Below are positions 36,532-59,407 of a stretch of 64,000 bases of DNA, piece after piece. The stretch lies in the IMG/VR virus record IMGVR_UViG_3300002092_001784, positions 192,001 to 256,000 of that record; one strand, given 5' to 3'. Below the pieces are notes generated by a model. It was not told the DNA's origin. It did no database searches and saw only the letters and a list, made by a program, of their open reading frames with translations. How positions within the stretch are numbered: position 1 is the stretch's first letter; each line of letters opens with the position of its first letter. Both the position numbers and the translations under genes were made by a program. Source of the stretch: a virus (Duplodnaviria; Caudoviricetes).

Positions 36532-37685
36532 GTATTTACGATAACTTAAAAAAGAATAATAATAATATAGTTCAAGTTACAAAAGTAAACGATGCAACTA
36601 TTCATTTTGTGAAAGGACCTTTTGTAGAAATTACAGGCCCAAAGCAAGCCGATTATCGAATTGATTTTATTGATAATAATACGGGTAATATATTATATAG
36701 CGGAACGCAGAGTAATAATATGTGGTCTAAATGTAATATTGAATATTTTGTAGATTGGAAGATTGTAATTTATGAAAATGGTGTATTATGGAAAGAATAC
36801 CATTATGATGTAAACGGTAAGCATGTTTATATTGCATTGGATTCAAAAGCATTGGGTGATACGTTGGGCTGGTTTCCAATGGCTGATGAATTTAGAAAAA
36901 AACATAATTGCCGTTTAAGTGTATCCACATTCAACAATAAATTGTTTAGGGGTCAATACCCCGATATTAAATTTGTAGAACCGGGAGAAGTTGTAGATAA
37001 TATTTACGCAATGTATACATTGGGATTGTTTTACAATGAAGATGGCTCGTTGAATATGTTTATGCACCCTAATAATCCACGTGAACAACCAATGCAGAAA
37101 ATGGCATCTGATATATTGGGATTAGAATATAAAGAGGTTCGTCCAAAGTTAAGAACTCGTCCAATCAATATAGATAAAGATTCTAAGCAGATTACGGTAG
37201 GTTTATTTGGAACGGCTCAAGCCAAATTTTGGAATAATCCAAACGGATGGCAAGAAGTTGTGGATTGGTTAAAGGGTAGAGGGTATACTGTTAGGGTATT
37301 ATCCAAAGAACCTGATAACTATATGGGAAATCGAATACCAAAAGGTGTAATTCAACAGGGTGAAGCTCCATTGGTTGATTTAATGGATGAAATGCGGCAA
37401 TCTAAAGCATTTATTGGAATCGGTAGTGGGTTGAGTTGGTTGAGTTGGGCATTGAATGTACCAACTGTTCTGATTAGTGGGTTTTCATACGATTGGGCTG
37501 AAATGCAAGATTGTATAAGAATATCAGCACCAGCTGGAAAATGCCAAGGTTGTTTTAATCGGTTGAGATTGGATGCCGGTGATTGGCATTGGTGTCCCGA
37601 TCATAAAGATACGCCAAAACATTACGAGTGTACAAAAACCATAACAAGCGATATGGTTATAAAAGAATTGGAAAAATTTCTATAA
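36528..37685 (+). CDS. Aah/TibC-like O-heptosyltransferase (GT-B, Cys-rich C-terminus)
   Basis: SKALGDTLGWFP...FRKKHNC, AKFWNNPNGWQEVVDWL, FIGIGSGLSWLSWA, C..C...WCP...ECTK..ITSDMV. Confidence 0.72.
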   Translation: MSIYDNLKKNNNNIVQVTKVNDATIHFVKGPFVEITGPKQADYRIDFIDNNTGNILYSGTQSNNMWSKCNIEYFVDWKIVIYENGVLWKEYHYDVNGKHVYIALDSKALGDTLGWFPMADEFRKKHNCRLSVSTFNNKLFRGQYPDIKFVEPGEVVDNIYAMYTLGLFYNEDGSLNMFMHPNNPREQPMQKMASDILGLEYKEVRPKLRTRPINIDKDSKQITVGLFGTAQAKFWNNPNGWQEVVDWLKGRGYTVRVLSKEPDNYMGNRIPKGVIQQGEAPLVDLMDEMRQSKAFIGIGSGLSWLSWALNVPTVLISGFSYDWAEMQDCIRISAPAGKCQGCFNRLRLDAGDWHWCPDHKDTPKHYECTKTITSDMVIKELEKFL

Positions 37686-37686
37686 T

Positions 37687-38094
37687 ATGAAAGTGTGGAT
37701 GAATGGTTGTTTTGATGTGTTAGGGCATGGACATTTCAAATTGATAAATCATGCAGCATCAATCGGAAATGAAGTTGTAATTGGTATTGATACGGATAGA
37801 CGAGTAAAAATTCTAAAAGATGATACTCGTCCATACCATACAGCAGAAGAACGAAAGTTCAATTTATTATCAATACGAGGTGTTGATAGGGTAATCATAT
37901 TCGATTCTGCTGAAGAATTGGCAGAACTTATAAAAACCGAAGCACCTGATATTTTTTTAATAGGCGAAGATTATATTGGAAAACCGATAGTAGGTGCCGA
38001 ATACGCCAAAGAAATACATTATTTTCCTAGGCAAGAACGATTGAGTACAACAAAAATTTTACAAAATGGAAAAGAAAATATTAGTAATTGGTGA
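37687..38094 (+). CDS. HldE/RfaE domain II-like sugar-phosphate nucleotidyltransferase
   Basis: NGCFDVLGHGH, IGIDTD.RV...K...RP...ER, GEDY, LSTTKI; neighbours favour ADP-heptose over TagD. Confidence 0.72.
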   Translation: MKVWMNGCFDVLGHGHFKLINHAASIGNEVVIGIDTDRRVKILKDDTRPYHTAEERKFNLLSIRGVDRVIIFDSAEELAELIKTEAPDIFLIGEDYIGKPIVGAEYAKEIHYFPRQERLSTTKILQNGKENISNW

Positions 38095-38812
38095 ATCATG
38101 TACGGATGTATTTGTGTATGGTAGTTCAATCCGAAAATCACCTGAAGGTAAAGGACCAGTATTAGTTCCAACTTCAGAAGTTTATTATTCGGGTATGGCG
38201 GCAAATACCTATAATAATCTATTGGCATTGGGAATGGATGCTGCATTATTTTCTCAAAATTCAGAAATTATAAAAACAAGATATATTGATGATGCGAGTG
38301 GTGAATTGTATCTACGAATAGATGAATATGATTCGACAAATCCAATTCAAATGGAATATTTGCCTGATTTGTCCCAATATGATGCCATCGTTATTTCTGA
38401 TTACAATAAAGGATTTTTAACAGAACAAAATATACAAACAATCGCATCTAAACACCCATTGGTAATATTGGATACAAAAAAACAACTAGGTGCTTGGTGT
38501 AAAGATGTTAAATTCATTAAATTGAATAGAACGGAAAGTGAAAAAAACTTACAAACTATTTTAAGTTATAATTGGTTGCGTGAGAAGGTGATAAGTACAT
38601 TGGATAAGGATGGGGCATCATATATGAATAGATTGGTTACCGCAAAACCAGTAGATGTAGTAGATATATCGGGCGCAGGAGATACTTTTGTTGCTGGGTT
38701 TATTAAAGAATACTTAGAATCCAACGATGTATTCAAATCAATCGAATTTGCTAATGAATGTGCGGCAATAGTAATTGCTCAAAGAGGTATTACTACCATA
38801 CAAAAGGATTAA
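38066..38812 (+). CDS. HldE/RfaE domain I-like PfkB-family heptose kinase
   Basis: ILVIGESCTDVFVYG...SPE...PV, GMAANT..NL, ISDYNKG, DISGAGDTFVA. Confidence 0.78.
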   Translation: MEKKILVIGESCTDVFVYGSSIRKSPEGKGPVLVPTSEVYYSGMAANTYNNLLALGMDAALFSQNSEIIKTRYIDDASGELYLRIDEYDSTNPIQMEYLPDLSQYDAIVISDYNKGFLTEQNIQTIASKHPLVILDTKKQLGAWCKDVKFIKLNRTESEKNLQTILSYNWLREKVISTLDKDGASYMNRLVTAKPVDVVDISGAGDTFVAGFIKEYLESNDVFKSIEFANECAAIVIAQRGITTIQKD

Positions 38813-38826
38813 AATACTATTCTGAT

Positions 38827-38835
38827 ATATTTATA
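38827..38835 (+). promoter_or_regulatory. Putative late promoter of the polyprotein
   Basis: ATATTTATA 23 nt before ATG 38859. Confidence 0.6.
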
Positions 38836-38858: not shown

Positions 38859-41800
38859 ATGAATGAGCTTGTAAAACATTTAGTTGAAACTATAATTTCG
38901 GAAGAAACTGAAAAAAATTATATTGTTGTATATTCCGGTAGATTTCAACCATTTCACAAAGGACATTATGCTACTTACTTAAATCTTACCAAAAAATTTG
39001 GAAAAGATAAAGTTTACATTGCTACGTCTAATGTAACTGATAATAAAAAATCACCTTTTAATTTTGCAGAAAAAAAGGTTATAATGACTAGAATGTTCGA
39101 TATTCCATCGGACAAAATAGTACAGATTAGAAACCCATATGCACCTACTGAAATATTAAATAAATATGATCCAGAAAAGACAGGTGTTATTTTTGTTGTT
39201 GGTGAAAAGGATACTGCTAGACTTGGTGGTAAATATTTCACACCATATAAGGGTACGGTTGATGCTGGATATAAAGATAAAGGATATGTATATGCTTCAC
39301 CTGCACAACCAAACGCAATAAGTGGTACTGATGTTCGTAATTGGTTAGGTAACGGTACGGATGAAGAAAAGAGAGCCAATTTTCTGAAAGCATATCCAAA
39401 ATTCGATGAGAAGATTTTCAAATTAATAACACTCAAGTTGAAAAAATTGGGTGAATCTATACGTGAGGAAATCAAAATCAATGTAAATGTTGGCGATACG
39501 GTGTTAATGGGAAAATTCAAAAACCATCCGGTTAAAGTTAAATCAATCGGTAAGGATGAACATGGTATGCCAACCATTAATGGAAAGAAAGCCGCTACAT
39601 TCAGAATAGGTAATCATATAAATATATTTGATACTGCGGTCAATGAAGATGGTGCGGGCGCCGGAGGTGCTGCCGGGTTTGGAGGACAAGGTGGTGGAGC
39701 TGGTGTTGGGTTATCTTTACCCGGTGGATATATAAACGGAGCACCAAATCCAAAGGATGTTAAAAAGACAAGAAAGAAATTAAAACAAAAAGATGATGAT
39801 ATTTACACACCAGTAAATGAAGCATCTCTTGCTGGATATTATGCTGATAGCGGAGAACCAAATCCTAATTATGTAGCTGATGGACAAGAACGTATTTTAG
39901 ATAAAGGAAAGCCAGAACCTTGGTTTACACAAGGAGGGTATACTCAATTACATATTCCAAAAGGTGATTGGATGAGAGGTAAGGCATTAAAAGATCGTGA
40001 AGATGATATGCAACTTCGTAAGGTATACTACAAAGTTCAAAATATTAAACAAAGTGCATTAAATCCGGCAGATGATCCACATACTACCGAAGATTGGCAA
40101 GTTGTTAATAGGGATACTCCGTTGGAAAAACCAAAAAGATTTTGGGAATTACCAAAAAATCAAAAGCCTGAAATAATAGATGATAAAGAAATTACTGAAA
40201 TATTCAATCAGACCCTAAAAGAATTGGGATTGTTGGAATTTAGTGGTGGGCACTCGTTTCCACATGATGGTAACGCAACAACAGGTCGTCAATGGAACAA
40301 ATCATGGGAAGAATATGATAATCCGGATGCATATATTAAACACCTAATGGGATGGTCTACTAAAGATGCCATACCAAGCGATAGGTTTAAGGATATTAAA
40401 CATCAAGAAATTCCATTAAATCAATCCGGACAGGAAACAGGAATATACGATCATACATTGGATTACAATATACTTGCTCCAAATGAATTTTTAGAAAAAT
40501 CTGAAATTCAAAAGGGTGTGGTGAACGATGCTTCAGATGAAATGCATCGTCCTTTACATAATGGAATGGAATGGCCATCTATGGATGATATTAAAGCCAA
40601 ACGAAAAAAAATAAAATCAAAACTTCGAAGTCCTAAAAATTCGTATTTGAGTGTGGATGCTCCAATCGTAGGTGAAACCGATTCCGAAGCATTAGATGAA
40701 ATGGCAATGCCAGATATGAAATCGGTAGAAAAATACGCAGATCAACAGTTGAGTCCGGAAGATGTTGAATTAGGAAAGCAAACTGACCATTTTTTCCAAC
40801 GATTAAATGATCCACGAAACGGAAAACCAATTTCGACAGCAGAAATGATAGGTTTCTTTAAGAGGTTGGGTAACAACAAAGAGAAATTTTTAGATTTTGT
40901 AAAGAAATATAGTGAATTTGTTGTAAAGGATAATAGAACAAATATCAATATCGCCTTTATGAAGCAGGCTAATAAACTTATTGCCAAAACGGTGATGAGA
41001 AAGCCTGATTTTAAGACAAGCAATCCAATATTTGTAGATGAAGCTGAACAATTGGATGAATTGGCATGGTCTACTAGTGCATTTAATTTTGTGCAAGATG
41101 TTGATGTACCATTTACACCAAAAGTTGCAAAAGCACTCTATGGTGATATGATAGTTACTACATTTCATGTTAGCGATTCTGATAATATTGATAATATTAA
41201 AAAGTTAATCGGTAAGAAAAAATCAGTGTCAACATTTACATATATGGCGCGAACCGCTTTGCAGAATATGGATGGTATACAAACCGACGGTGGTATAATA
41301 TATCAATTAGTTGGTAAGGTTTTAATAGATTCTGCGAATGATATTATGAGTAGACCTGATGAACAGGGTAGACGGTGGGTAATGGGACGAGATTTGAATC
41401 CAGTTACCTATAAATTGTATCAGAAATTTTATAAGTATATGGGTTCTAAGAAAGAACTTCAAAAATACGATGAAAAATATGAATCAACTTATGATGCAGA
41501 CACTGACTCTAGTTCATTAACCAATAAAGAAAAATCTGAATGGATAGCAGCATACATTCGATTGGCTGAAGAGTGGATTATTCAGCACGCCGATGAATTT
41601 AGGGATACTATGCGTAAGATGCCAATGGATGAATATTGGAATGAAGTAGTGGTATACGATATACACATTAAAGATGTATTGTGGACAAACTCTGGGCAGT
41701 TTGGGACGGCTGACGAAGATGAATTGAATGAAATAAGTCATAAATTAAATACAATCGCAACCGGAACTGTTTATTACACCGATGAACCTTCAGATGCATT

Positions 41801-42326
41801 GAAATTTGTAAAATCAAGAGGTGGACAATATGCCAAAGCAAATATCGGATTACCATATAAAGGTGTGCCGGTTGGCAGTACAAATATTAATAGTATATTA
41901 AGTGCCGACGCATTTAACATGAAAGAATCGGTTCAACCAATTAGTATCAACGAAGCAACCGAAGCATTGAAGATGCACATACCATCGGATATTGAGCAAA
42001 TATATAAAATGTTTCAAAAAAATGGTAAGAAATTGTATATTGTTGGTGGTGCTGTTAGGGATGCTATTTTGGGAAAGACACCAAAAGATTTTGATTTAGC
42101 AACCGATGCTACTCCTGATGAAGTTTTAGCTATGGCTAAAAAGGAAGGTATGCATTCGACAGAAGTTGGAAAAGCATTTGGTGTGGTGATTGTTAATGGT
42201 AATGAAATAGCAACTTTCAGGAAAGATGTGAAATTAAAAGATAATGCAGATGATTTTATAAAATATTTACAATATATTAATATACCGAATACTCGTATAT
42301 CTACTTTCAAAAAAGAATTGAATTAG
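38859..42326 (+). CDS. Multidomain polyprotein, part A: NadM/cytidylyltransferase-like, SH3-like, BECR-like, ART-like module 1, N-terminal half of CCA-adding enzyme
   Basis: SGRFQPFHKGH and ISGTDVR; HFFQRLNDPRN...KTVMRK; LAW...TFHVSD...KSVSTF...WNEVVV; YIVGGAVRDAILGKTPKDFDLATDA...EIATFRKD. Confidence 0.75.
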   Translation: MNELVKHLVETIISEETEKNYIVVYSGRFQPFHKGHYATYLNLTKKFGKDKVYIATSNVTDNKKSPFNFAEKKVIMTRMFDIPSDKIVQIRNPYAPTEILNKYDPEKTGVIFVVGEKDTARLGGKYFTPYKGTVDAGYKDKGYVYASPAQPNAISGTDVRNWLGNGTDEEKRANFLKAYPKFDEKIFKLITLKLKKLGESIREEIKINVNVGDTVLMGKFKNHPVKVKSIGKDEHGMPTINGKKAATFRIGNHINIFDTAVNEDGAGAGGAAGFGGQGGGAGVGLSLPGGYINGAPNPKDVKKTRKKLKQKDDDIYTPVNEASLAGYYADSGEPNPNYVADGQERILDKGKPEPWFTQGGYTQLHIPKGDWMRGKALKDREDDMQLRKVYYKVQNIKQSALNPADDPHTTEDWQVVNRDTPLEKPKRFWELPKNQKPEIIDDKEITEIFNQTLKELGLLEFSGGHSFPHDGNATTGRQWNKSWEEYDNPDAYIKHLMGWSTKDAIPSDRFKDIKHQEIPLNQSGQETGIYDHTLDYNILAPNEFLEKSEIQKGVVNDASDEMHRPLHNGMEWPSMDDIKAKRKKIKSKLRSPKNSYLSVDAPIVGETDSEALDEMAMPDMKSVEKYADQQLSPEDVELGKQTDHFFQRLNDPRNGKPISTAEMIGFFKRLGNNKEKFLDFVKKYSEFVVKDNRTNINIAFMKQANKLIAKTVMRKPDFKTSNPIFVDEAEQLDELAWSTSAFNFVQDVDVPFTPKVAKALYGDMIVTTFHVSDSDNIDNIKKLIGKKKSVSTFTYMARTALQNMDGIQTDGGIIYQLVGKVLIDSANDIMSRPDEQGRRWVMGRDLNPVTYKLYQKFYKYMGSKKELQKYDEKYESTYDADTDSSSLTNKEKSEWIAAYIRLAEEWIIQHADEFRDTMRKMPMDEYWNEVVVYDIHIKDVLWTNSGQFGTADEDELNEISHKLNTIATGTVYYTDEPSDALKFVKSRGGQYAKANIGLPYKGVPVGSTNINSILSADAFNMKESVQPISINEATEALKMHIPSDIEQIYKMFQKNGKKLYIVGGAVRDAILGKTPKDFDLATDATPDEVLAMAKKEGMHSTEVGKAFGVVIVNGNEIATFRKDVKLKDNADDFIKYLQYINIPNTRISTFKKELN

Positions 42327-42352
42327 CCACATTTCGTTTATTTTATTAATTA

Positions 42353-42361
42353 ATATTTATA
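42353..42361 (+). promoter_or_regulatory. Putative late promoter of inserted endonuclease (and downstream polyprotein part B)
   Basis: ATATTTATA-TGT-ATG, identical context to 13665. Confidence 0.6.
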
Positions 42362-42364
42362 TGT

Positions 42365-43117
42365 ATGATTATATACAAAGTAACAAATAAAATAAATAAA
42401 AAGATATATATTGGACAAACTATACGTTCAATGACGGAACGTAAATATGGACATATAAAATCTGTTAGAATGGGAAGTACTTCGTTGTTTCATAATTCTA
42501 TTAGAAAATATGGAATTGATAATTTTACATGGGAAGTAATAGACACGGCACATTGTATAGAAAAGTTAAATGAATTAGAAATTAGTTATATTGCAAAATT
42601 TAATTGTTTTATTGATTTTCAAAATAGTAATGGGTATAATATGAATACTGGTGGTGGTAATTATATAACATCACATTTAACTAAACAAAAACTTAGTATT
42701 ATAAATACCGGTAAAATTTTATCAACCGAAACTAAAGAGAAAATCAGTAAAGGTAACCTTGGAAAATCAGTAACCGAATCATTTCGAAAAACTATGAGTG
42801 AGTTAAATAAAGGTAGAGTTGCTAGTTTGGAAACTAGAGAAAAAATAAGTAAATCTTTGCAAGGCAAGCCGGGTAGAAATACCGGTAATACGCATACTCA
42901 AGAAACTAAAGAAAAAATATCGAATACAAAAAAAGGAACGGTTTCTTGGAATGCATCGCCAGTTATACAACTAACGATGGACGGCGAATTTGTTAGAGAA
43001 TGGCGAAGCGCAGCATTTGCCGCATCCCAATTAAAGTTAAGTCAAGGCAATATAACATCATGTATACATGGTAAACGAAACAGTACTGGTAACTACAAAT
43101 GGATTAAAAAAATATGA
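42365..43117 (+). mobile_element. Free-standing GIY-YIG homing endonuclease inserted within the CCA-adding domain
   Basis: IIYKVTN...IYIGQT...NGYNMNTGG; NUMOD3 repeats; C-terminal PVIQL...SAA...GNYKW; stop overlaps the next start (ATGA). Confidence 0.85.
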
Positions 43118-46100
43118 AAAATTGGAAAGAAATTGCTAAGCAGTATTTTGCGGATGAATATATTGATTTTCAAAAATTAATAAGTGGTACTGGTGCAAAT
43201 ATAAACGTTAAACGGGGGGCTCAGATTGTAGATTATACGGATATTGAGGGTGATGTCAAACGACGTGACTTGACAATTAATGCGTTATTTTATGATATTG
43301 ATAGAGGTGAAATCGTAGATTTAGTTGGTGGTATAGCAGATTTACATAAAAAGAAAATACGAACCGTTGGTAACGCAACTGAAAGATTTGATGAAGACCC
43401 TCTTCGGAAATTAAGAGCGTTGAGATTTTACAGTCAACTGGGTGGTAATATGGATGTTGAAACTCTTAAAGCATTAAAAGATAACCCATCATTGGAAGGT
43501 GTAAGTGCGGAAAGGATTCGTGACGAATTTATAAAAACACTTAATAAAGCAAAATCCGAAAAGAGATACCTTCAAATGCTGCAAGCTCTTAAATTCTTAA
43601 ATCAAATTCTACCCGATTTGGTGGTGGCTAAACCGTATGTAGATGAAAATGATTACATTGTATTACTTGCGTATTTGCTTAGAGAAAATGATACTCAAAC
43701 TCTAATACGTCAACTAAATAAGTTGAAGTATACAAACGATGAATGTAAAGATATAACTTTTTTGGTATCGCTACAATCATTCACCGCAGATAAAATTGCC
43801 AATTACAAAAAAAACCAATCTGTTACTACATTAAGTGATAATCAAATATTGGAATTTGGGAAATTGATCGGAAAGAACTTCAATAAATTTGTGAAATTTC
43901 AATTAGCTATAAAAGGTTCAGATGTACCTGCTGGATTAAAAGGTAAAGATATTGGAAATTGGATGGGTGATGCTGAATCAAAACGATTTTTGAATGAAGC
44001 AGTAGTGATTAAAAATTTCAAAGATATATTCAGTAAATTACCAACTGAAGTTCAGAAAAAAATATATTCACTAAAAGATGCACCGCAAAACCCAAAACAT
44101 CATCCGGAAGGTAATACATTAAAGCACACTATTATGGTGGTGAATCGTGCATTGAAGTATTTTCCGAATGATATTGATTTAATAATAGCAGCAATATTTC
44201 ACGATATAGGTAAAGCTGATACGATGAGTATTCATCCAAAGACCGGTGGTATAACTCATTATGGGCATGAAGATGTATCTACCGAATGGGTTAACCGATA
44301 TAGTAATTGGATTGAATCTATGGGTGGAAACGCTGAAGATGTACGATATATTGTACAGAACCATATGAAAATGCATAATTTTGATATAATGCGATTGGCA
44401 AAACAACGTGCATTACAATCGCATCCTGCATTTGATAAATTATATGGATTTTCCCAAAAAATGGATAAGGGTGGATTCGGTGAGGGAATACATGAGGGAG
44501 TAAGTGAGGGTATAAATAATCCAAAAATTACATTTCTAATCGGACCTCCTGCTTCTGGAAAAAGTACTTGGGTTAGTAATAACTCAAAAGGTGCTATTAT
44601 CATTTCACGTGACGATATTGTAGACCGTTTAAGAAAACCATTGGGATTATCGTATGGTGAGGCATTTAGTAATGATGAGTTACAAAATAAAGTTAATTCT
44701 GAGCTACAATCCCATATTACACAGACACTTACTTCTGGCAAGGATATAGTTGTGGATATGACTAATATGACCAAAAAAGGTAGACATAAAATATTATCAA
44801 GAGTACCAAAAAACTATACAAAAAATGCGGTAGTGTTTAGTGTTGGTCGTGATGAATTACTTAAACGATTAAAATCAAGGGAAGAAGAAACTGGGAAAAC
44901 TGTACCTGTTTCGGTTGTAGACCAAATGATTAGGAATTTTCAGAAGCCAGATACCGGAGAATTTGATAACATTACAAATGAGGGAATAACTGAGGGTGTA
45001 ATCAATGAATTGGCTTGGCAAGGCAAAGCAATGGATCGGATACAGGAATTGGGATTCCCATTGACACCTAAAATTGGTAAGGAAGTATATGGTGATACAG
45101 TTGTTACTACATTTCATGTAAGCGATGTAAACCATATTGATGATATTAAAAAAATAATCGGTAAAAAGAAATCCATATCAACATTCAAATATATGAATGA
45201 TATGATGCTGAAAAATATGGATGGCATTAGAACCGTCGGTGGTATTATTTATGAATTGCGAGGAAATATAGTAGCAGATTCAACCAAAGATATAGGTAGT
45301 GCCCCAGATGAACAAGGACGTAGATGGGTGATGCTATATTCATCGGCACCGGGTATATATAAATTTACATATGGGTTCAAACAGAAATTAAAATCCAATC
45401 CAATAACAGGTCCTATTTTTGAGTATTTTTGGAAAAATGGTATAATGCCGGAAATGGATAATACTAATAAAGCAAAATTCATAGCAGCATATATTTCTAC
45501 GGCAGAAAAATACATAATTGAAAATCAAGATGATTGGGTACAACTATTGCTTTCACCGCAAACTAATAATGCTTGGAATGAAGTATTGGTAAATAATATA
45601 CAAGTTAATGATATAATTTGGACAAATAAATTTTATCAATATAGTAAAGAACAATTAGCTGAATATTCTAAAAAATTAGAAGTAATTGCAAAGGGTAAAG
45701 TATATTTTACAATGGATTCAAAAGATACCATTGAATTTGTTAAATCACGCGGTGGCTTTACTGGTAATATTAATGCCACACCAAAAGAATATATGGGAGC
45801 GGCAGTTGGAAGTGAAGATGCAATGAAATTTATGAAAGAAGAAGTGCTGAATGAATTGGCTTGGGAGGCTGGTGTTAATAAATTTATAACACAAATGAAT
45901 TTTCCGTTTACACCAAAAGTTGGGAAAGCATTATATGGTGACGCGGTTGCTACTACATTTCATATAACAGATGCTGACAACTTTTCTAAAATAAAATCTC
46001 TTATCGGCAAAAAGAAATCCATTTCTTCGTTTACCTTTATGGGTGATGATATGTTAGATGATATAAGGGGAATACAGACCGTAGGTGGTATTTTATTTCA

Positions 46101-47997
46101 ATTAGAAGCAAAAATAGTACTAGATTCCGCGGTAGATGCGATGAGTCAACCGGATACAGAAGGTAGACGTTGGTCAATCGAACCAACAACATTGAGAAAA
46201 CAATTCAAACAGGAAATATATGATGATGCCAAGTTTTATAAACGATTTAATTTATATTGGGCTGGCGGAAAGGCAATGACTCAAAGTGAAAAGGGTAAGT
46301 TTGTAGCGGATTATATCACACGAGCTGAAAAGTTTTTAATTAAAAATAAAAATAAAGTTATAAAAGAGTTAAGATCGCATGGGTTGGTGGGTGATTGGAA
46401 TGAAGTTATTGTATATGATATAAAGGTAAAGGATGTATTATGGACAAATACTTCCAATAATTATTATACCGATAGAATACGACATAGTGATGCTGAAATA
46501 AAGCGTATTGCTAGTGAACTAAAACAAATAGCAACTGGTACTGTATATTTTACTGAAAATCCTAAAGATGCTATTGAATTTGTGAAAAGTAGAGGTGGTT
46601 TTGTTGGTGGCAGTGGCTGGGACTCTACTGGTGAATATAAAGGAGCTGCTGTTGGCAGTACAAATCCAAAAATTATTATGAAAGAAGGAAATATGAAAAC
46701 TATAATGGAAGGCTTGAGTAAAAAAGATTTACTAATCGAAGAACTGATGGTTCAAAGACAATACGGATTACTTGCTAATAACCAAAAGGTATTACTACAA
46801 TGTGGTGGGGCCTACGGACATATGCATCACCCATTTGATACCGAAATCAATCTTACATTTGGGGATTTGAAAGATATAGTAAAGAAAGCGTTAACTGGTG
46901 AATTGGAACTTACTCGTGAAAAAACAGATGGTCAGGCTCTCGCAATTAGTTGGGTAGACGGTAGATTGGTTGCTGCTCGTAATAAATCACATCTTAAAAA
47001 CAAAGGAAAGGATGCAATGACTTTACAAGCCGTTGCTGATAAATTTGGTGGGCGTGGTGGATTATCCGATGCATACAATTTTGCAATGCAAGACCTTTCA
47101 AATGCAATTAGTGCATTATCAGAAGCACAAAGACAACTTATATTCAAAGATGGGACATGTTTTATGAATTTGGAAGTAATATATCCAACTTCGGTAAATG
47201 TAATACCATACAATCAGGCACTATTGGTATTTCATGGAACATTTGAATACGACGAGAGTGGAAACATAATTGGTGAAAATCAACCCGCAGCTCGTGTATT
47301 GGCAGGTATGATTAAGCAGGTAAACCAGAATGTTCAAACGAAATACAAAATACAAGGACCACCGGTTATTCAATTACCAAAATCGGCAGATTTGACAGAC
47401 CTTCAATCAAAATATTTGGCAATGGTTTCAAAATTACAATCAGAATTTGGATTATCAGATTCAGATGGTGTTGCTGATTATCATCAGGCATGGTGGAGGT
47501 ATTACATCGATGTTAACGCACATTCATTGCCGGAAGAACAAAAGAAAGCACTAACAAAAAGATGGGCATTTTACGATAAATCATTTAGGTTGAAGGATAT
47601 TCAAGATGATACAGTTAGAGCTTGGGCTGAAAAAATAGATAAGCAAGATCAAGCAAAAATTGCGAAAGATAATCTAATGAGGTTTGAACAGATATTTTTA
47701 GGAGTGGGTTCAGATGTACTTTCATTTATGAAATCAGTTCTTACCGCAAATCCTGATGAAGCAAAACGACAGATGGTTAGTAAATTAGATCAAACGATTA
47801 AAGATGTAAAAAACAGTGGTGATCCGAAAAAGATAGAAAAACTAAAATTAGAATTACAGAGATTACAATCGGTAGGTGGGTTTGATAAAATTGTACCAAT
47901 CGAAGGTATTGTTTTTGTATATAAAGGTAACGTAATGAAGCTAACAGGCGCTTTTGCTGCATGCAATCAAATTAACGGTATCTTTTTTTCAAAATAG
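43114..47997 (+). CDS. Multidomain polyprotein, part B: C-terminal half of CCA-adding enzyme, HD domain, PNK-like kinase, ART-like modules 2 and 3, ATP-dependent ligase-like domain
   Basis: IEGDVKRRDLTINA...RFDEDPLRKLRALRF; HHPEG..LKH...FHDIGKA; GPPASGKST...SRDD...DMTN; two LAW modules; EKTDG...ARNK...NLEVI...EGIVF...MKLTG. Confidence 0.78.
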   Translation: MKNWKEIAKQYFADEYIDFQKLISGTGANINVKRGAQIVDYTDIEGDVKRRDLTINALFYDIDRGEIVDLVGGIADLHKKKIRTVGNATERFDEDPLRKLRALRFYSQLGGNMDVETLKALKDNPSLEGVSAERIRDEFIKTLNKAKSEKRYLQMLQALKFLNQILPDLVVAKPYVDENDYIVLLAYLLRENDTQTLIRQLNKLKYTNDECKDITFLVSLQSFTADKIANYKKNQSVTTLSDNQILEFGKLIGKNFNKFVKFQLAIKGSDVPAGLKGKDIGNWMGDAESKRFLNEAVVIKNFKDIFSKLPTEVQKKIYSLKDAPQNPKHHPEGNTLKHTIMVVNRALKYFPNDIDLIIAAIFHDIGKADTMSIHPKTGGITHYGHEDVSTEWVNRYSNWIESMGGNAEDVRYIVQNHMKMHNFDIMRLAKQRALQSHPAFDKLYGFSQKMDKGGFGEGIHEGVSEGINNPKITFLIGPPASGKSTWVSNNSKGAIIISRDDIVDRLRKPLGLSYGEAFSNDELQNKVNSELQSHITQTLTSGKDIVVDMTNMTKKGRHKILSRVPKNYTKNAVVFSVGRDELLKRLKSREEETGKTVPVSVVDQMIRNFQKPDTGEFDNITNEGITEGVINELAWQGKAMDRIQELGFPLTPKIGKEVYGDTVVTTFHVSDVNHIDDIKKIIGKKKSISTFKYMNDMMLKNMDGIRTVGGIIYELRGNIVADSTKDIGSAPDEQGRRWVMLYSSAPGIYKFTYGFKQKLKSNPITGPIFEYFWKNGIMPEMDNTNKAKFIAAYISTAEKYIIENQDDWVQLLLSPQTNNAWNEVLVNNIQVNDIIWTNKFYQYSKEQLAEYSKKLEVIAKGKVYFTMDSKDTIEFVKSRGGFTGNINATPKEYMGAAVGSEDAMKFMKEEVLNELAWEAGVNKFITQMNFPFTPKVGKALYGDAVATTFHITDADNFSKIKSLIGKKKSISSFTFMGDDMLDDIRGIQTVGGILFQLEAKIVLDSAVDAMSQPDTEGRRWSIEPTTLRKQFKQEIYDDAKFYKRFNLYWAGGKAMTQSEKGKFVADYITRAEKFLIKNKNKVIKELRSHGLVGDWNEVIVYDIKVKDVLWTNTSNNYYTDRIRHSDAEIKRIASELKQIATGTVYFTENPKDAIEFVKSRGGFVGGSGWDSTGEYKGAAVGSTNPKIIMKEGNMKTIMEGLSKKDLLIEELMVQRQYGLLANNQKVLLQCGGAYGHMHHPFDTEINLTFGDLKDIVKKALTGELELTREKTDGQALAISWVDGRLVAARNKSHLKNKGKDAMTLQAVADKFGGRGGLSDAYNFAMQDLSNAISALSEAQRQLIFKDGTCFMNLEVIYPTSVNVIPYNQALLVFHGTFEYDESGNIIGENQPAARVLAGMIKQVNQNVQTKYKIQGPPVIQLPKSADLTDLQSKYLAMVSKLQSEFGLSDSDGVADYHQAWWRYYIDVNAHSLPEEQKKALTKRWAFYDKSFRLKDIQDDTVRAWAEKIDKQDQAKIAKDNLMRFEQIFLGVGSDVLSFMKSVLTANPDEAKRQMVSKLDQTIKDVKNSGDPKKIEKLKLELQRLQSVGGFDKIVPIEGIVFVYKGNVMKLTGAFAACNQINGIFFSK

Positions 47998-48061: not shown

Positions 48062-48904
48062 ATGATTATATATAAAGCTACAAACAAAGTAAGTGGTAAG
48101 TGCTATATTGGGCAAACTGTTAAGACTTTAGAAAATAGAATATATCATCACATTTCTAATTCTAAATCTGCAATACATAAAAGTATTTTTCACAATGCTT
48201 TGAAATCTTATGGTTCTGATAATTTTGAATGGGAAGTTATAGCAACGGCCGATACAAAAGAACAACTTAATGAATTGGAAATATACTATATAACAAAATA
48301 TGATAGTATAAATACCGGTTATAATATGGTTGAAGGTGGGACTGGTGGTTACAACCAATTTGCGGTAGATGCAAACAAATTAAAAAGAGCAGGTAAAACT
48401 TGGAATGAAATATATTCAGATACGGGGTTGGCTGTTATGAAAAATGCATTATCTACTTTTACTAAAGCTGGGGTTGAATATATTAAAAATTTACCAAAAG
48501 AACAAAGAATTATTAATGCAAAACGAGCTAACAAAGCCAGAACTGATATGGGATATAAACATAGTGATGCAACAAAAGATAAAATGAGTAAAGCTCAAAA
48601 AGGTATAACCAATACAGACCGATATGGTGAAGATGCTGCCAGCGAACTAAAAAAGAAAATATCCGAAGCAACTAAAGAAGCTATGAAAAAAGTGGACAGG
48701 GATTTAATCGGAAGAAAATCAGTTGAAGCTCGTACACCATTTTGGAATAAAAAACACGAAAATGATAGAAATGTGATATTAGAGATGACAAAACTGGGTA
48801 GTAAAATTAAAGATATAATGTTTGCTATAAATGTATCACCACCGACTTATTATAAACGAGTTAATGAATTGAAAAATATGGGATACTCCAATTTGTTTGA
48901 ATAA
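48062..48904 (+). mobile_element. Free-standing GIY-YIG homing endonuclease with C-terminal HTH-like segment
   Basis: IIYKATN...CYIGQT...GYNMVEGG; GYKHSDATKDKMS; IKDIMFAINVSPPTYYKRV; followed by a terminator. Confidence 0.82.
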
Positions 48905-49686: not shown

Positions 49687-51282
49687 ATGAATCAACCAAT
49701 AGTACAAAAGAAATCCCTAAAGGATATTATAGCAGAGGAATATAAAAAATGTGCGGTAGACCCGATACATTTTATGAAAAAGTATTGTATGATACAGCAC
49801 CCTGTTAAGGGAAAAATACCATTTCAATTATTTCCATTTCAAGAAAAGACATTAACCGAATTTAATGCAAACCGTTTTAATGTGGTTCTAAAATCCAGAC
49901 AAACTGGTATTTCTACATTATGTGCCGGATATGCATTATGGAAGATGTTATTCAATACGGATTTTAATGTATTGGTAATCGCTACAAAACAAGAAGTTGC
50001 TAAAAACCTTGTTACGAAAGTACGTGTAATGCATCAATTACTACCTGCATGGTTACGAGGTGGTAGTTTGGAAGATAATAAACTTTCATTGGGATTGCAT
50101 AACGGTTCACAAATTAAAGCAATCGCATCATCGCCTGACGCAGGACGTTCTGAGGCATTATCGTTACTGATATTTGATGAGGCGGCATTTATTGATGATA
50201 TTGATGAGATATGGAAATCTGCACAATCTACATTATCAACGGGAGGTAGCTGTATATCATTATCAACTCCAAACGGTGTGGGTAATTGGTTTCATAAAAC
50301 ATGGGTAGGTGCGGAAGAAGGTACAAATCCGTTTGTTCCTATAAAATTACATTGGACTGTTCATCCAGAAAGAGATCAAAAGTGGAGAGATGAGCAAGAA
50401 GAACTCTTAGGAACTAAAGGTGCAGCTCAGGAGTGTGATTGTAACTTTGTAAGTTCGGGTGATACTGTTATTGATCCTGCGTTATTGATGTTTTATAAAG
50501 AAACTTATGTAATGGAGCCAATTGAAAAGGGTGGGATTGATGGAAACTTATGGCGGTGGGAATTTCCCGATTTCACTAAATCCTATATGATAGTAGCTGA
50601 CGTTGCGCGTGGTGATGGTGCTGACTTTTCAACGGCTCATGTTATTGATATTATAAATTCGGTTCAAGTTGCAGAATACCGTGGAAAAATGGAAACTAAA
50701 GATTTTGGAAACTTTTTAGTGGCTTTGGCAACTGAATATGGTGATGCGCTTCTCGTAATTGAAAACGCAAATGTTGGATGGGCGTGTATTCAGCAGGTAA
50801 TAGATAGAGGGTATCGTAATCTATTCTATATGTCCAAAGACTTAAAATATGTGGATACTGAAAATCAATTTACAAACCGATACAGAGCAGAAGACAAGGG
50901 ATTGGTTGCTGGATTTTCAACTACTTCTCGGACAAGACCGTTGATTATTTCAAAATTAGATGATTATTTCAGAGATAAATCTATAATCATACACTCATCG
51001 AGAACAATAGATGAATTATTTACATTTATTTTCAAAAATGGAAGAGCAGAAGCAATGCAAGGGTATAACGATGACTTGGTTATGGCTTTAGCTATTGGGT
51101 TATGGGTAAGAGATACTGCACTTCGCTTGAGACAAGAAGGTATTGATTTAACACGAAAGGCAATAGGTGGTATTTCAAACCAAACCTATTCGGGCATTTA
51201 TGGTGGTAATTTTAACAGAGATAAAGACCCTTGGAAGATGAGAGTTGGTGATAATTATGAAGATTTATCTCAATGGTTGTAG
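49687..51282 (+). CDS. terL: Terminase large subunit (T4 gp17-like)
   Basis: VLKSRQTGIST Walker A, LLIFDEAAF Walker B, STPNG, VADVARG and DDLVMALA nuclease motifs. Confidence 0.93.
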   Translation: MNQPIVQKKSLKDIIAEEYKKCAVDPIHFMKKYCMIQHPVKGKIPFQLFPFQEKTLTEFNANRFNVVLKSRQTGISTLCAGYALWKMLFNTDFNVLVIATKQEVAKNLVTKVRVMHQLLPAWLRGGSLEDNKLSLGLHNGSQIKAIASSPDAGRSEALSLLIFDEAAFIDDIDEIWKSAQSTLSTGGSCISLSTPNGVGNWFHKTWVGAEEGTNPFVPIKLHWTVHPERDQKWRDEQEELLGTKGAAQECDCNFVSSGDTVIDPALLMFYKETYVMEPIEKGGIDGNLWRWEFPDFTKSYMIVADVARGDGADFSTAHVIDIINSVQVAEYRGKMETKDFGNFLVALATEYGDALLVIENANVGWACIQQVIDRGYRNLFYMSKDLKYVDTENQFTNRYRAEDKGLVAGFSTTSRTRPLIISKLDDYFRDKSIIIHSSRTIDELFTFIFKNGRAEAMQGYNDDLVMALAIGLWVRDTALRLRQEGIDLTRKAIGGISNQTYSGIYGGNFNRDKDPWKMRVGDNYEDLSQWL

Positions 51283-57259: not shown

Positions 57260-57859
57260 ATGCAACCAAAACTATTAATTGAAACAAGACTATTTGAAGG
57301 ACGAGTACAAGAAGATTCTGGCGGAAGGACTCTTGTAAAGGGTATTCTTCAGAGAGCTGATGCTGAAAACCAAAACGGTAGAAAGTACCCACGTCAGGTA
57401 TTAATGCGTGAAGCCAAAAAATACGAAACTCTAATTAAAGAACGTAGGGCTCTTGGTGAATTAGACCACCCAGATTCAACGGTTATCAATCTAAAGAACG
57501 TATCTCACAATATTAGAGAAATACATTGGGATGGGGATGATTTGTGTGGTACTATTGAAATTTTACCAACACCATCCGGCAATATTTTGAAGGAACTTCT
57601 TAAAGCAGGTATTCTATTGGGAATTTCTTCAAGAGGTATGGGTTCTACTCGTCAGTTAGAAGGTACAACAGTGGAAGTGCAAGATGATTTTGAATTAATT
57701 GCATGGGACTTTGTATCAAATCCATCTACACAAGGAGCATTTATGACGCCTGTAAATGAATCAGTAAATAGAGGACTTCAACAAATTGGAACTGATATTT
57801 GCGGAGAATATTGCAGAGCACAGGATTTAATGAGAGAAATTATAACAGAAATATCATAA
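57260..57859 (+). CDS. gp21: Prohead protease (T4 gp21-like)
   Basis: GILQRADAENQNGRKYP, ALGELDHPDS..INL.NVSH, LGISSRGMGS, WDFVSNPS. Confidence 0.92.
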   Translation: MQPKLLIETRLFEGRVQEDSGGRTLVKGILQRADAENQNGRKYPRQVLMREAKKYETLIKERRALGELDHPDSTVINLKNVSHNIREIHWDGDDLCGTIEILPTPSGNILKELLKAGILLGISSRGMGSTRQLEGTTVEVQDDFELIAWDFVSNPSTQGAFMTPVNESVNRGLQQIGTDICGEYCRAQDLMREIITEIS

Positions 57860-58485: not shown

Positions 58486-58930
58486 CTATGAAAAAGCAAA
58501 ATTCGTATCTAATAATGGAAGGTAGTGCTAATCCTAAAAATTTGAAAGAATCAGTGTTAACCGAAGATATTACACATGAAGTAATTTTACCATTATTACC
58601 ACTACTTAGTGTTATAGCTGGAGTGGGTATCGGCAGTTTTATCGGTGATTTGGACCTTGATAGGGGTATCATACAATCCTTAAAAGATTCTTGGAATGGA
58701 TATTTTAGAAACCGAGCTGTCAAAAAGATAGTGGACCGCATTAAAGATGATAAAGATGTTCAAGAATTTCTAAACCATCCAAGTAAACCCGGTTGGACAA
58801 AAATGCTAGTTACCAAACTTACATCTGAAGAAAAAAAATACCTATACAGTTTAACTCGAAATAAATTTTAACTATGAAAACGCAAAATTCGTATCTAATA
58901 ATGGAGGGTAGTGCTAACCCTAAGAACTTG
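58483..58930 (+). repeat. 62-nt dispersed repeat at starts of two adjacent genes (58483-58544 and 58869-58930)
   Basis: 57/62 nt identical; encodes MK(K/T)QNSYLIMEGSANPKNL. Confidence 0.9.
58488..58871 (+). CDS. Putative internal head protein with duplicated leader peptide
   Basis: Begins MKKQNSYLIMEGSANPKNL; then LKE and LTE sites and a hydrophobic stretch (VILPLLPLLSVIAGVGIG). Confidence 0.6.
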   Translation: MKKQNSYLIMEGSANPKNLKESVLTEDITHEVILPLLPLLSVIAGVGIGSFIGDLDLDRGIIQSLKDSWNGYFRNRAVKKIVDRIKDDKDVQEFLNHPSKPGWTKMLVTKLTSEEKKYLYSLTRNKF

Positions 58931-59407
58931 GTAAGTACTAAAACTAAAAAAGTTATCAAAGAAGGTGAAGACCACGAAGTATCTATGGCAGGAAACCAAT
59001 TAGATACTATTATAAAAGCAGCAACCGAATTGAAAGCCAAAATCGGAACTGATGAAAAAAATCTACCGGGATGGGTACAAGACCATATTTCTCAATCTGA
59101 AAACTTTATATCTCAAGCTAATAACGGTTATGGTGAAACTAATGAAGTAATTAAAAAGGGTAAATTTAACGAAGTATCTAATGGTGATTTTATAACACTT
59201 GATGTAAACGTTGGAGATACGGTAAAATTTTATACAAATACACCTGTGCAGAATGTTGGAACAACCGGAAAGGCTCAAACTGGAAAGGTTGTTAAAGTAG
59301 ATTCAACTACATTTACCGTAAAGGGTAATGATGGTAAGGAACATAAACTTCCAAAGAAATGGTACAAACATGCTACTTATTTACCATCTATTCTTAAAAA
59401 GGGGTAA
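58874..59407 (+). CDS. Putative internal head protein with duplicated leader peptide
   Basis: Begins MKTQNSYLIMEGSANPKNL; IKE|GEDHEVSMA...LPGWVQ module; FNE| then SH3-like module. Confidence 0.6.
   Translation: MKTQNSYLIMEGSANPKNLVSTKTKKVIKEGEDHEVSMAGNQLDTIIKAATELKAKIGTDEKNLPGWVQDHISQSENFISQANNGYGETNEVIKKGKFNEVSNGDFITLDVNVGDTVKFYTNTPVQNVGTTGKAQTGKVVKVDSTTFTVKGNDGKEHKLPKKWYKHATYLPSILKKG

What the first reader, a model, noticed from the sequence alone, without database searches (positions are those of the whole stretch)
41061..46686. Three diverged ADP-ribosyltransferase-like modules
Seen: three approx. 280-aa paralogues (41061-41927, 45010-45840, 45856-46686) each starting E|LAW, with conserved TTFH(V/I)(S/T)D, KKS(V/I)S(T/S)F, GI.T.GG, PD..GRRW and WNEV(V/L/I)V, and variable middle regions. 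Established: ART folds use an H/R strand, an S-x-S strand and a terminal catalytic Glu. Inference: Alt-like injected ARTs with diversified targets.
Basis: partly seen in the sequence, partly recalled or inferred. Interest (0 to 1): 0.72.

Follow-up and report, generated by a model that had tools for sequence, protein, structure and literature searches.

The report
Capsid-cargo ART-like enzyme triplet
A giant uncultured relative of phage T4 carries three diverged copies of a previously unnamed enzyme module, probably an NAD+-using ADP-ribosyltransferase, inside two huge multi-enzyme proteins that look built to be loaded into the capsid, cut apart by the head protease and injected with the DNA.

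Summary
Three paralogous modules of about 280 aa (43-45% identical, BLASTP E 4e-75 and 7e-74) lie at the stated coordinates with all the listed motifs. Their middle part is far more variable (20-29% identity) than their core (51-64%).

They belong to a large unnamed family: 542 cluster representatives, all from metagenomes. It has no Pfam, PHROG, NCBIfam or PDB sequence match, and three members found no cultured phage.

About half of the free-standing homologues start with a 10-residue leader laid out like T4's capsid targeting sequence. Inside the polyproteins each module follows an L/I-x-E site, the cutting rule of T4-type head proteases. The window encodes such a protease.

Homology to Alt or Tpt1 is not supported. 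NAD+ use, cleavage and packaging are all inferred.

The scan has noted similar cargo polyproteins and leader-tagged ART-like proteins on other DNA.

The parts
38859..42326 (+). ORF1, a 1155-aa polyprotein. Order: leader, NMNAT-like domain, small SH3-like block, unassigned region, conserved pre-module domain, module 1, N-half of the CCA-adding enzyme head.
38859..38888 (+). N-terminal leader MNELVKHLVE with L4, L8 and E10, which is the layout of a T4-type capsid targeting sequence
   Evidence: T4 ipII and ipIII leaders were read. The rule (residues 4 and 7 for targeting, 8 and 10 for processing) is from PMC9026906.
38928..39341 (+). Cytidylyltransferase-like domain with GRFQPFHKGH. Its best named matches are NMN adenylyltransferases, all below their cut-offs.
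   Evidence: Pfam PF01467 E 2.6e-10; NCBIfam NMNAT models at 1.6e-5 to 6e-3
41052..41060 (+). L-D-E, predicted head-protease cut site directly before module 1
41061..41927 (+). Module 1 (289 aa, pI 5.2). Invariant His at 41166-41168, Ser at 41229-41231, Glu at 41643-41645. Ends FNMKE.
42033..42248 (+). N-terminal half of the tRNA nucleotidyltransferase (PolyA_pol head) domain, model positions 1-76
   Evidence: unsplit relatives
42365..43117 (+). GIY-YIG homing-endonuclease-like ORF (assigned from its N-terminal sequence only, no family search run) that splits the CCA-enzyme domain and so splits the polyprotein. Its stop codon overlaps the ORF2 start (ATGA).
   Evidence: no group I intron found
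43114..47997 (+). ORF2, a 1627-aa polyprotein. Order: C-half of the CCA enzyme plus RNA-binding part, HD domain, P-loop polynucleotide-kinase-like domain, module 2, module 3, C-terminal domain of about 430 aa with a KxDG motif.
45001..45009 (+). I-N-E, predicted cut site before module 2, preceded by a second site (ITE)
45010..45840 (+). Module 2 (277 aa, pI 8.7). His at 45115-45117, Ser at 45178-45180, Glu at 45580-45582. Ends KFMKE.
45847..45855 (+). L-N-E, predicted cut site before module 3
45856..46686 (+). Module 3 (277 aa, pI 9.2), the copy that was modelled. His at 45961-45963, Ser at 46024-46026, Glu at 46402-46404. Ends IIMKE.
46186..46377 (+). Helical insert of module 3 (residues 111-174), placed between the GRRW hairpin and the Glu strand. 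This is the hypervariable part of the family; the GRRW-to-WNE spacing is 60-148 aa across members.
57260..57859 (+). T4 gp21-type head maturation protease, the enzyme expected to cut after L/I-x-E
   Evidence: phrog_207 E 1.6e-52. The syntenic relative has a 199-aa PF03420 Peptidase_S77 gene in the same place.
38828..38835 (+). TATTTATA motif 31 nt upstream of ORF1. The same motif stands before head-region genes at 49004, 51338 and 53637 and before the giant ORF at 23536. It may be a shared late promoter element.

Best explanation
The three modules are diverged copies of an unnamed phage protein family that most likely has the ADP-ribosyltransferase (ART) fold, with an H-S-E active site.

Free-standing members of the family are made with a 10-residue T4-type capsid targeting sequence. 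In this phage the modules are instead strung into two large proteins together with an NMNAT-like domain, a CCA-adding enzyme, an HD phosphoesterase, a polynucleotide-kinase-like domain and a KxDG domain.

The proposed mechanism is as follows. The proteins are made late together with the head genes. ORF1's own leader draws them into the prohead core. The gp21-type protease cuts them after L/I/V/M-x-E at the domain joints, for example just before each LAW. The released enzymes of about 31-33 kDa stay in the head and enter the next host cell with the DNA. There each uses NAD+ to modify a host macromolecule. The variable helical insert next to the catalytic Glu is expected to choose the target, so three copies would mean up to three targets.

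Shown by computation: the paralogy, the size of the family, the confident models, the leader and cut-site patterns, and the protease gene. Inferred: the ART chemistry, the cleavage, the packaging and ejection, and the targets.
For: Fold:
- Two members only 27% identical were modelled separately (pLDDT 89.9, pTM 0.88; pLDDT 88.6, pTM 0.86).
- BFVD lists PolyVal-ART entries. The Atlas shape search lists DarT/PARP, ART/ADPrib_exo_Tox and DUF2971 after the family's own clusters.
- Language-model look-alikes of both members are ART families: DarT/PARP, Arr, Tox-ART-HYD1, OspC and NarE.

Active site:
- H, S and E are the only invariant residues in 76 sequences. They lie on predicted strands 31-38 and 55-59 and at the first residue of strand 183-197.

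Cargo:
- 60 of 116 free-standing homologues from the protein library, and 40 of 60 from IMG/VR, have [LIVMF]8-x-E10. The rate is 15 of 361 among this genome's ORFs.
- T4 ipII and ipIII read MKTYQEFIAE. Family leaders read MIKLKDLLxE or MKTFKEFLLE.
- The genome has its own run of genes with MIKLKxLLxE leaders.
- Modules inside other polyproteins are also preceded by L/I/V-x-E.
- [LIVM]xE sites are 7.6 times denser within 12 residues of the 10 domain joints (19 of 44 sites; Fisher p 1e-9).
- The protease gene is in the window.
- The polyprotein lies among head and tail genes, upstream of the terminase, as in relatives.
- The gp21 rule, the CTS and Alt being cut at both ends are in PMC9026906. 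Head-packaged ARTs in polyvalent proteins are in PMC9503650.

Link to NAD+:
- An NMNAT-like domain heads ORF1 and four other module-bearing giants.
Against: - No sequence or profile link to any ART family was found. Pfam at E up to 5 on 63 members gave nothing. PF18760, PF14487 and PF01885 do not hit the genome. hhalign against Alt and against a KptA alignment is negative.
- H-S-E is not one of the classical ART residue triads.
- Residue-level superposition on known active sites could not be inspected.
- ORF2 has no leader of its own. It would need the split CCA halves to associate, or splicing, in order to be loaded.
- The domain joints used for the enrichment test were set by me after I had seen the sequence.
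- No virion proteome exists and there is no cultured relative.
- No Macro or NadV gene was found in the genome.
Confidence: 0.55

Rival explanations
1. The modules have the ART fold but work inside the RNA-repair pathway of the same polyprotein. They would act on RNA ends or tRNA (Tpt1-like removal of a 2'-phosphate, or DarT/PARP-like ADP-ribosylation of nucleic-acid ends) rather than as host-takeover effectors.
For: Tpt1 is the top fold match for both models, and the DarTs, which act on nucleic acids, follow. The module recurs fused to CCA-enzyme, HD and KxDG-domain pieces in other proteins: P0048, P0056, P0095 and the IMG/VR polyproteins. Conserved basic motifs GKKKS and GRRW could bind phosphates.
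Against: hhalign against a KptA profile gives probability 0.07%, and PF01885 does not hit the genome. Within the aligned module domain no region matched the KptA N-terminal part that carries its R-H-R-R residues, although the region N-terminal of the His strand was not searched on its own. The family keeps a catalytic Glu, which Tpt1 does not need (family knowledge). Most members are free-standing, leader-tagged genes, often in tandem arrays and not next to repair genes. Repeated lineage-specific duplication with fast divergence fits conflict effectors better than a housekeeping step.
Confidence: 0.2
2. The family is capsid cargo but not an ART. It would be another kind of enzyme, or a non-enzymatic internal head protein such as an inhibitor of a host defence in the manner of T4 IPI, and the ART-like matches would be fold convergence or noise.
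For: All fold scores are in the range that the tools call uninformative. No profile-level homology to any ART was found. T4-type internal proteins are functionally very diverse (PMC3012670).
Against: ART-type proteins come back from four different search methods and from two models built on members 27% identical. No competing sheet-containing fold recurs. A strictly invariant His, Ser and Glu in a family with 20% mean column identity argues for catalysis.
Confidence: 0.17
3. The two long ORFs are ordinary cytoplasmic multi-domain enzymes that are neither packaged nor cut. The L/I-x-E sites would then be chance features of acidic linkers.
For: [LIVM]xE is a short, common motif, with 44 sites in 2782 residues. 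ORF2 lacks a leader. RNA-repair enzymes of T4 itself are not virion proteins (family knowledge).
Against: The same L-x-E precedes the domain both in free-standing leader-tagged genes and inside at least 15 other polyproteins. The sites are enriched at the joints (p 1e-9). Domain order is shuffled between relatives, as expected for independent units. The gene sits inside the head gene block and carries the same upstream motif as head genes.
Confidence: 0.08

Closest known systems
Phage T4 Alt (head-packaged, injected mono-ADP-ribosyltransferase)
   Same: It is a T4-type phage protein loaded into the prohead, trimmed by the gp21 protease at both ends after L/I-x-E, and ejected with the DNA to modify host proteins using NAD+ (PMC9026906). 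The modules here are likewise flanked by such sites on both sides.
   Different: No detectable homology: hhalign probability 0.3%. Alt belongs to the R-S-E ARTs and is 682 aa. This family is H-S-E, about 270 aa, has a helical insert, and occurs as three copies inside polyproteins.
ART-PolyVal (PF18760) domains of phage polyvalent proteins (Iyer et al. 2017, PMC5512222; PMC9503650)
   Same: These are ART domains embedded in very large multi-domain, virion-delivered phage proteins. BFVD entries with that name appear among the weak structural matches.
   Different: PF18760 does not hit this genome at E up to 10. Polyvalent proteins were reported not to associate with RNA ligases, whereas here the partners are RNA-repair-type enzymes. 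Release here would be by the T4-type head protease at L-x-E joints.
DarT, PARP and diphtheria-toxin type (H-Y-E) ARTs
   Same: An aromatic-His-x-Ser/Thr motif on the first strand and an N-E-hydrophobic strand that recalls the PARP Glu strand (sequence pattern; my knowledge of those families). DarT1 and DarT align over 126-144 residues. From the printed alignment ranges, His36 and Glu183 fall within 0-5 residues of the catalytic His and Glu of diphtheria toxin, PARP14 and tankyrase. This is an extrapolation using residue numbers from memory, not a residue-level alignment.
   Different: Ser replaces the Tyr, there is an insert of 60-148 aa, and no profile match exists (PF14487).
Tpt1/KptA RNA 2'-phosphotransferase
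   Different: Only the NAD+ lobe aligns (about 100 residues). There is no profile similarity. The family keeps a Glu that Tpt1 lacks (family knowledge), and no region of the aligned module domain matched the N-terminal part of KptA in the profile comparison.
[quoted passage not shown]
   Same: A 10-residue N-terminal leader with hydrophobic residues at 4 and 7, L/I at 8 and Glu at 10, attached to unrelated bodies and removed by gp21. Family leaders and this genome's MIKLKxLLxE genes fit that layout.
   Different: T4's internal proteins are small basic non-enzymes or inhibitors. Here the cargo is an enzyme family, and in this phage it is delivered as part of a polyprotein.

Membership tests
ADP-ribosyltransferase superfamily | Split beta-sheet NAD+-binding core fold | tested here: inconclusive
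ADP-ribosyltransferase superfamily | His or Arg on strand 1, Ser or Tyr on strand 2, and an acidic catalytic residue at the start of strand 5 | tested here: met
   His36, Ser57 and Glu183 are the only invariant residues in 76 sequences. They lie on predicted strands 31-38 and 55-59, and Glu183 is the first residue of strand 183-197. Their spatial clustering could not be inspected.
ADP-ribosyltransferase superfamily | Significant sequence or profile match to a described ART family | tested here: not met
   Pfam at E up to 5 on 63 members shows no ART family. PF18760, PF14487 and PF01885 have no hit in the genome. hhalign against Alt and KptA is negative.
ADP-ribosyltransferase superfamily | NAD+ binding and NAD+-dependent transfer or hydrolysis | not testable with these tools
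   This needs biochemistry.
T4 Alt / ModA / ModB family | R-S-E motif set and sequence similarity to Alt | tested here: not met
   hhalign of the 63-sequence profile against T4 Alt gives probability 0.3%. The first-strand residue is an invariant His, not Arg.
Tpt1/KptA (PF01885) | Profile similarity, and an N-terminal RNA lobe with the Arg-His-Arg-Arg tetrad | tested here: not met
   PF01885 has no hit in the genome although it fires in the control genomes. hhalign against a 24-sequence KptA alignment gives probability 0.07%.
T4-type capsid-targeted internal head proteins | N-terminal leader of about 10 residues ending L/I-x-E, shared by unrelated proteins of the same phage | tested here: met
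   60 of 116 and 40 of 60 free-standing family members have [LIVMF]8-x-E10. The rate in this genome's ORFs is 15 of 361, and 6 of those carry MIKLK..LL.E. The T4 ipII and ipIII leader was read for comparison. For the three modules themselves the equivalent is the L-x-E directly upstream. ORF1 starts MNELVKHLVE.
T4-type capsid-targeted internal head proteins | A gp21-type (Peptidase_S77) prohead protease in the same genome | tested here: met
   Window 57260-57859 matches phrog_207, head maturation protease, at E 1.6e-52. The gene in the same place in a syntenic relative is PF03420.
T4-type capsid-targeted internal head proteins | Presence in virions, in processed form | not testable with these tools
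   The phage is uncultured and no proteome exists.
Polyvalent proteins (Iyer et al. 2017) | Very large multi-domain virion-delivered protein that combines unrelated effector domains with shuffled architectures | tested here: inconclusive
   The ORFs are multi-domain and the domain order is shuffled among relatives. One relative carries a SprT-like peptidase hit. The partner domains here are RNA-repair-type, which that paper did not find with polyvalent proteins.

The most novel reading that the evidence does not exclude
A T4-related jumbo phage loads into its capsid about 2,800 residues of polyprotein. The head protease cuts this into a ready-to-use injected kit: an NAD+-making NMNAT-like enzyme, three diversified enzymes of a new H-S-E ART family, and a full set for mending cut tRNAs (CCA-adding enzyme, HD phosphoesterase, kinase, ligase-like domain). 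NAD+-dependent host modification and tRNA repair would then start the moment the DNA enters, before any phage gene is expressed. The ART-like module would be a mobile cassette that moves between free-standing leader-tagged genes and such polyproteins.
Probability: 0.35. Interest if true: 0.85.

Novelty: new variant of a known kind. Interest (0 to 1): 0.62.

Why it matters
Head-packaged ARTs are known from a single studied case (T4 Alt) and from computational work on polyvalent proteins.

This work defines a large family that is unannotated and known only from metagenomes. It has 542 clusters at 50% identity, and 303 of them match at E 1e-10 or better. The family appears to be a new branch of the ART superfamily and carries the T4 capsid-loading tag. 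That would make injected NAD+-dependent enzymes a common weapon of environmental T4-like phages.

The three-copy arrangement, with the variable insert next to the catalytic Glu, offers a natural experiment on how ART target choice evolves.

Embedding the modules with an NMNAT-like domain and tRNA-repair-type enzymes suggests that phages may pre-load counter-defence enzymes, against tRNA-cutting or NAD+-depleting host systems, rather than express them after entry. All of this can be tested with cloned parts.

Tried and rejected
Searches that found nothing for the modules:
- Pfam, PHROGs and NCBIfam gave nothing credible.
- PDB sequence searches with 3- and 63-sequence profiles gave only chance hits.
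- Foldseek against the PDB (both models) and BFVD found no match below E 1e-3. The repeated cereblon rows have TM about 0.12 and were set aside as noise.
- tblastn of three family members against 50,697 GenBank phage records gave no match.

Tests of membership in known ART families, all negative:
- hhalign against T4 Alt.
- hhalign against a KptA alignment built for the purpose.
- Genome scans with PF01885, PF18760 and PF14487.

Other checks:
- NAD+ salvage or ADP-ribose-removal partners were sought. There is no NAPRTase/NadV and no Macro domain in the genome.
- A group I intron around the endonuclease gene was sought with Rfam at gathering and at E up to 10. None was found. By eye I found no splice junction with the usual U before the 5' splice site and G at the intron's 3' end.
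- I looked for a family member with a short insert that would give a cleaner fold match. The minimum spacing is 60 residues, so the insert is part of the family.
- I tested whether leaders are more alike within a locus than between loci. They are not clearly so (4.3% against 3.3%), because the MIKLK-type leader is shared across these related phages. I therefore dropped the claim that leaders co-vary with the phage.
- The search for related loci with the 63-sequence alignment failed for lack of a conserved stretch. The 11-sequence alignment worked.
- The C-terminal domain of ORF2 and residues 170-740 of ORF1 have no PDB sequence match. The only lead for the C-terminal domain is DUF6267-like viral clusters.
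Full report
SETTING

The window is part of a 266,153-bp IMG/VR virus record that CheckV estimates to be complete. Nearly all genes lie on the + strand.

The large terminase (49687-51282) is 56% identical to that of Flavobacterium phage vB_FspM_immuto and 55% identical to that of Microcystis phage Mel-JY01. More distant matches are to T4-like cyanophages. A T4-type portal, a head maturation protease (57260-57859, phrog_207, E 1.6e-52) and a major head protein follow. This is therefore a distant jumbo relative of T4. The finding lies in the structural gene block, directly upstream of the terminase.

THE OBSERVATION

Two long ORFs hold the modules: ORF1 (38859-42326, 1155 aa) and ORF2 (43114-47997, 1627 aa). 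Translating the three stated intervals gives three proteins of 289, 277 and 277 aa.
- They align end to end at 43-45% identity, with E 4e-75 and 7e-74.
- Identity is 51-64% in the N-terminal core and only 20-29% in the middle.
- There are no further copies in the genome.
- In a maximum-likelihood tree of 54 family domains the three form one clade (98/91 support) with long branches. They are an old triplication within this lineage. Other polyproteins show duplications of their own, and free-standing and embedded forms interleave in the tree.

THE FAMILY

The modules have no match in Pfam, PHROGs, NCBIfam or PDB sequences. A profile of the three copies finds 542 representatives at E 0.001 or better, 303 of them at 1e-10 or better, among 1.84 billion cluster representatives. 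Most are free-standing proteins of 255-320 aa, and some are embedded in proteins of 1200-1900 aa.

IMG/VR holds at least 93 loci. Several have two or three tandem copies, and many lie just upstream of a terminase-like gene. Three different members find nothing in 50,697 GenBank phage records, so no cultured phage is known to carry the family.

Across 76 diverse members only three residues are invariant: His36, Ser57 and Glu183 in M3 numbering. Lys54, Asp94, Asp100, Gly103, Arg105 and Trp106 are nearly invariant. The spacing from the His to the GRRW motif is almost constant (median 68, range 65-77), while the spacing from GRRW to WNE ranges from 60 to 148.

FOLD

M3 was modelled with 63 homologues and gives pLDDT 89.9 and pTM 0.88. 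P0153, a member 27% identical to it, was modelled with 76 homologues and gives pLDDT 88.6 and pTM 0.86. Both models show the same order of elements:
- a strand ending in F-H;
- a helix;
- a strand carrying S-x-S-x-F;
- a helix;
- a long strand;
- a hairpin carrying PD..GRRW;
- a four-helix insert;
- a long strand that begins with the invariant Glu;
- helix, strand, helix, strand.

No fold search gives a strong match. The weak matches nevertheless agree with each other.
- Re-ranking Foldseek's list adds PARP14, tankyrase 2, diphtheria toxin and TreTu.
- BFVD lists several PolyVal-ART entries at E 0.03-0.8.
- The ESM Atlas shape search returns three unnamed viral clusters, which are the family itself (TM 0.62-0.72). 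After them come Phage_Mu_F minor capsid proteins, DUF2971, ART/ADPrib_exo_Tox and a viral DarT/PARP cluster.
- Language-model look-alikes of both members are ART families: viral DarT/PARP at 0.89 and 0.88, then Arr, Tox-ART-HYD1, OspC, NarE and DarT. All score below the 0.9 line that the tool sets for more than a lead.

From the alignment ranges printed, and catalytic residue numbers that I recall for diphtheria toxin (His21, Glu148), PARP14 (His1682, position 1782) and tankyrase 2 (His1031, Glu1138), His36 and Glu183 fall within 0-5 residues of the corresponding positions. This is an extrapolation, not a residue-level alignment.

Against this stands the lack of any sequence or profile link to ART families. 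I put the ART fold at roughly three in four. Homology to Alt or to Tpt1 in particular is not supported.

CARGO SIGNALS

T4 gp21 cuts after L/I-x-E. The first 10 residues of IPIII are enough for capsid loading, with residues 4 and 7 serving targeting and residues 8 and 10 serving processing. Alt is trimmed at both ends (PMC9026906). T4 ipII and ipIII begin MKTYQEFIAE and ipI begins MKTFKEF.

- Free-standing family members begin MIKLKDLLxE, MKTFKEFLLE, MKSFKGYLxE and similar.
- [LIVMF]8-x-E10 occurs in 60 of 116 members from the protein library and in 40 of 60 unique IMG/VR members. It occurs in 15 of 361 ORFs of this genome.
- Six of those 15 are MIKLK..LL.E genes. Five are adjacent at genome positions 140085-143151, so the phage has its own array of leader-tagged genes.
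- ORF1 begins MNELVKHLVE.
- In at least 15 other multi-domain relatives the embedded module is also directly preceded by L/I/V-x-E.
- In ORF1 and ORF2, 19 of the 44 [LIVM]xE sites fall within 12 residues of the 10 domain joints. That is a 7.6-fold enrichment (Fisher p 1e-9). The caveat is that I placed the joints myself, from Pfam and BLAST block ends, after reading the sequence.
- Each module also ends in M-K-E.

THE POLYPROTEIN

ORF1 carries a cytidylyltransferase-like domain whose best named matches are NMN adenylyltransferases, all below their cut-offs. Then come module 1 and the first 76 positions of a tRNA nucleotidyltransferase head domain.

ORF2 continues that head domain from position 79. 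It then has the RNA-binding part, an HD domain, a P-loop kinase related to polynucleotide kinases, modules 2 and 3, and a C-terminal domain with a KxDG motif. The only lead for that last domain is viral DUF6267-like clusters.

In IMG/VR relatives (L051, L054, L064, L068) the same blocks form a single uninterrupted ORF in a different order, and the CCA domain is continuous. Four other module-bearing giants also start with the cytidylyltransferase-like domain. One of them lies in the same position relative to terminase, portal and S77 protease. The module also occurs fused only to a CCA fragment, only to an HD domain, or only to the KxDG domain.

A TATTTATA motif lies 31 nt upstream of ORF1 and at similar distances before head-region genes. 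This fits late co-expression.

INTERPRETATION

The best reading is that these are protease-released capsid cargo enzymes of a new ART-like family. The variable helical insert lies in the position where ARTs carry target-recognition loops. I cannot tell whether the targets are host proteins or nucleic acids. The fusion partners and the Tpt1 and DarT matches keep an RNA-directed role alive as the main rival. The rival readings and the refuting results are listed in their own sections.

The polyvalent-protein literature describes head-delivered ARTs but reports no association with RNA ligases. This architecture would therefore be a new variant.

Earlier notes of this scan describe leader-tagged genes in this same genome, and similar cargo polyproteins and leader-tagged ART-like arrays in other genomes. 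I reached the leader result independently, before reading those notes.

Noticed in passing
window 42231-43200 (ORF1 end, ORF 42365-43117, ORF2 start): The CCA-adding enzyme domain, and with it the polyprotein, is split by a GIY-YIG endonuclease-like gene (assigned from its N-terminal sequence only) whose stop overlaps the ORF2 start (ATGA). ORF1 has a tail of about 29 aa and ORF2 a head of about 28 aa that are absent from unsplit single-ORF relatives (L051, L054, L064, L068). Both halves keep a V-K at the break. Rfam finds no group I intron, so whether this is a split gene or an undetected intron remains open.
   Followed up: partly
window 48062-48904 and 13677-14390: Further GIY-YIG-type endonuclease-like ORFs, with N-termini like that of 42365-43117. 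One lies between ORF2 and the gene before the terminase. Each is preceded by the TATTTATA motif.
   Followed up: no
window 13666, 16354, 17252, 23502, 38828, 42354, 48033, 48974, 51301, 53589 (+ strand TATTTATA): The intergenic motif TATTTATA lies 11-48 nt upstream of ten + strand genes, including ORF1, the 3477-aa ORF and head-region genes. It may be a late promoter element of this phage.
   Followed up: partly
genome positions 140085-143151 and 37517-37831 (outside the window): Five adjacent genes and one distant gene with unrelated bodies all begin MIKLK(x)LLxE. This is an internal-protein-like array carrying the same leader as free-standing members of the module family in other phages.
   Followed up: partly
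window about 40640-41050 (ORF1 aa 594-730): A conserved domain ending ..TNINIAFMKQANKLIAKTVMRKPDF (phrog_23027 and phrog_14518, function unknown) lies directly upstream of module 1. It also precedes the module in P0016, P0017, P0048, P0093 and P0096, so it may be a fixed partner of the module.
   Followed up: no
loci L051, L054, L062, L064, L068, L072-L075, L086: Relatives carry the same building blocks (SH3-like block, CCA enzyme, module, NMNAT-like domain, KxDG domain) in different orders within one ORF. The polyprotein is therefore a shuffled string of cassettes.
   Followed up: partly
loci L053, L056, L061, L063, L079, L083, L084: Two or three free-standing family genes lie in tandem, each with its own MKSFK- or MKTL-type leader.
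   Followed up: no
window 58488-58871 and 58874-59407: Two adjacent ORFs share an almost identical N-terminus, MK(K/T)QNSYLIMEGSANPKNL, followed by unrelated sequence. They lie just after the head protease.
   Followed up: no
window 23536-33969 and 8660-13624: Very long ORFs of 3477 aa and 1654 aa in the tail and baseplate part of the window. A syntenic relative has a 4484-aa ORF in the same place. Neither was examined.
   Followed up: no
window 37687-38812: Two overlapping genes lie immediately upstream of ORF1. By their N-terminal motifs they look like a small cytidylyl/adenylyltransferase and a PfkB-type sugar kinase. They were not run through any family search.
   Followed up: no
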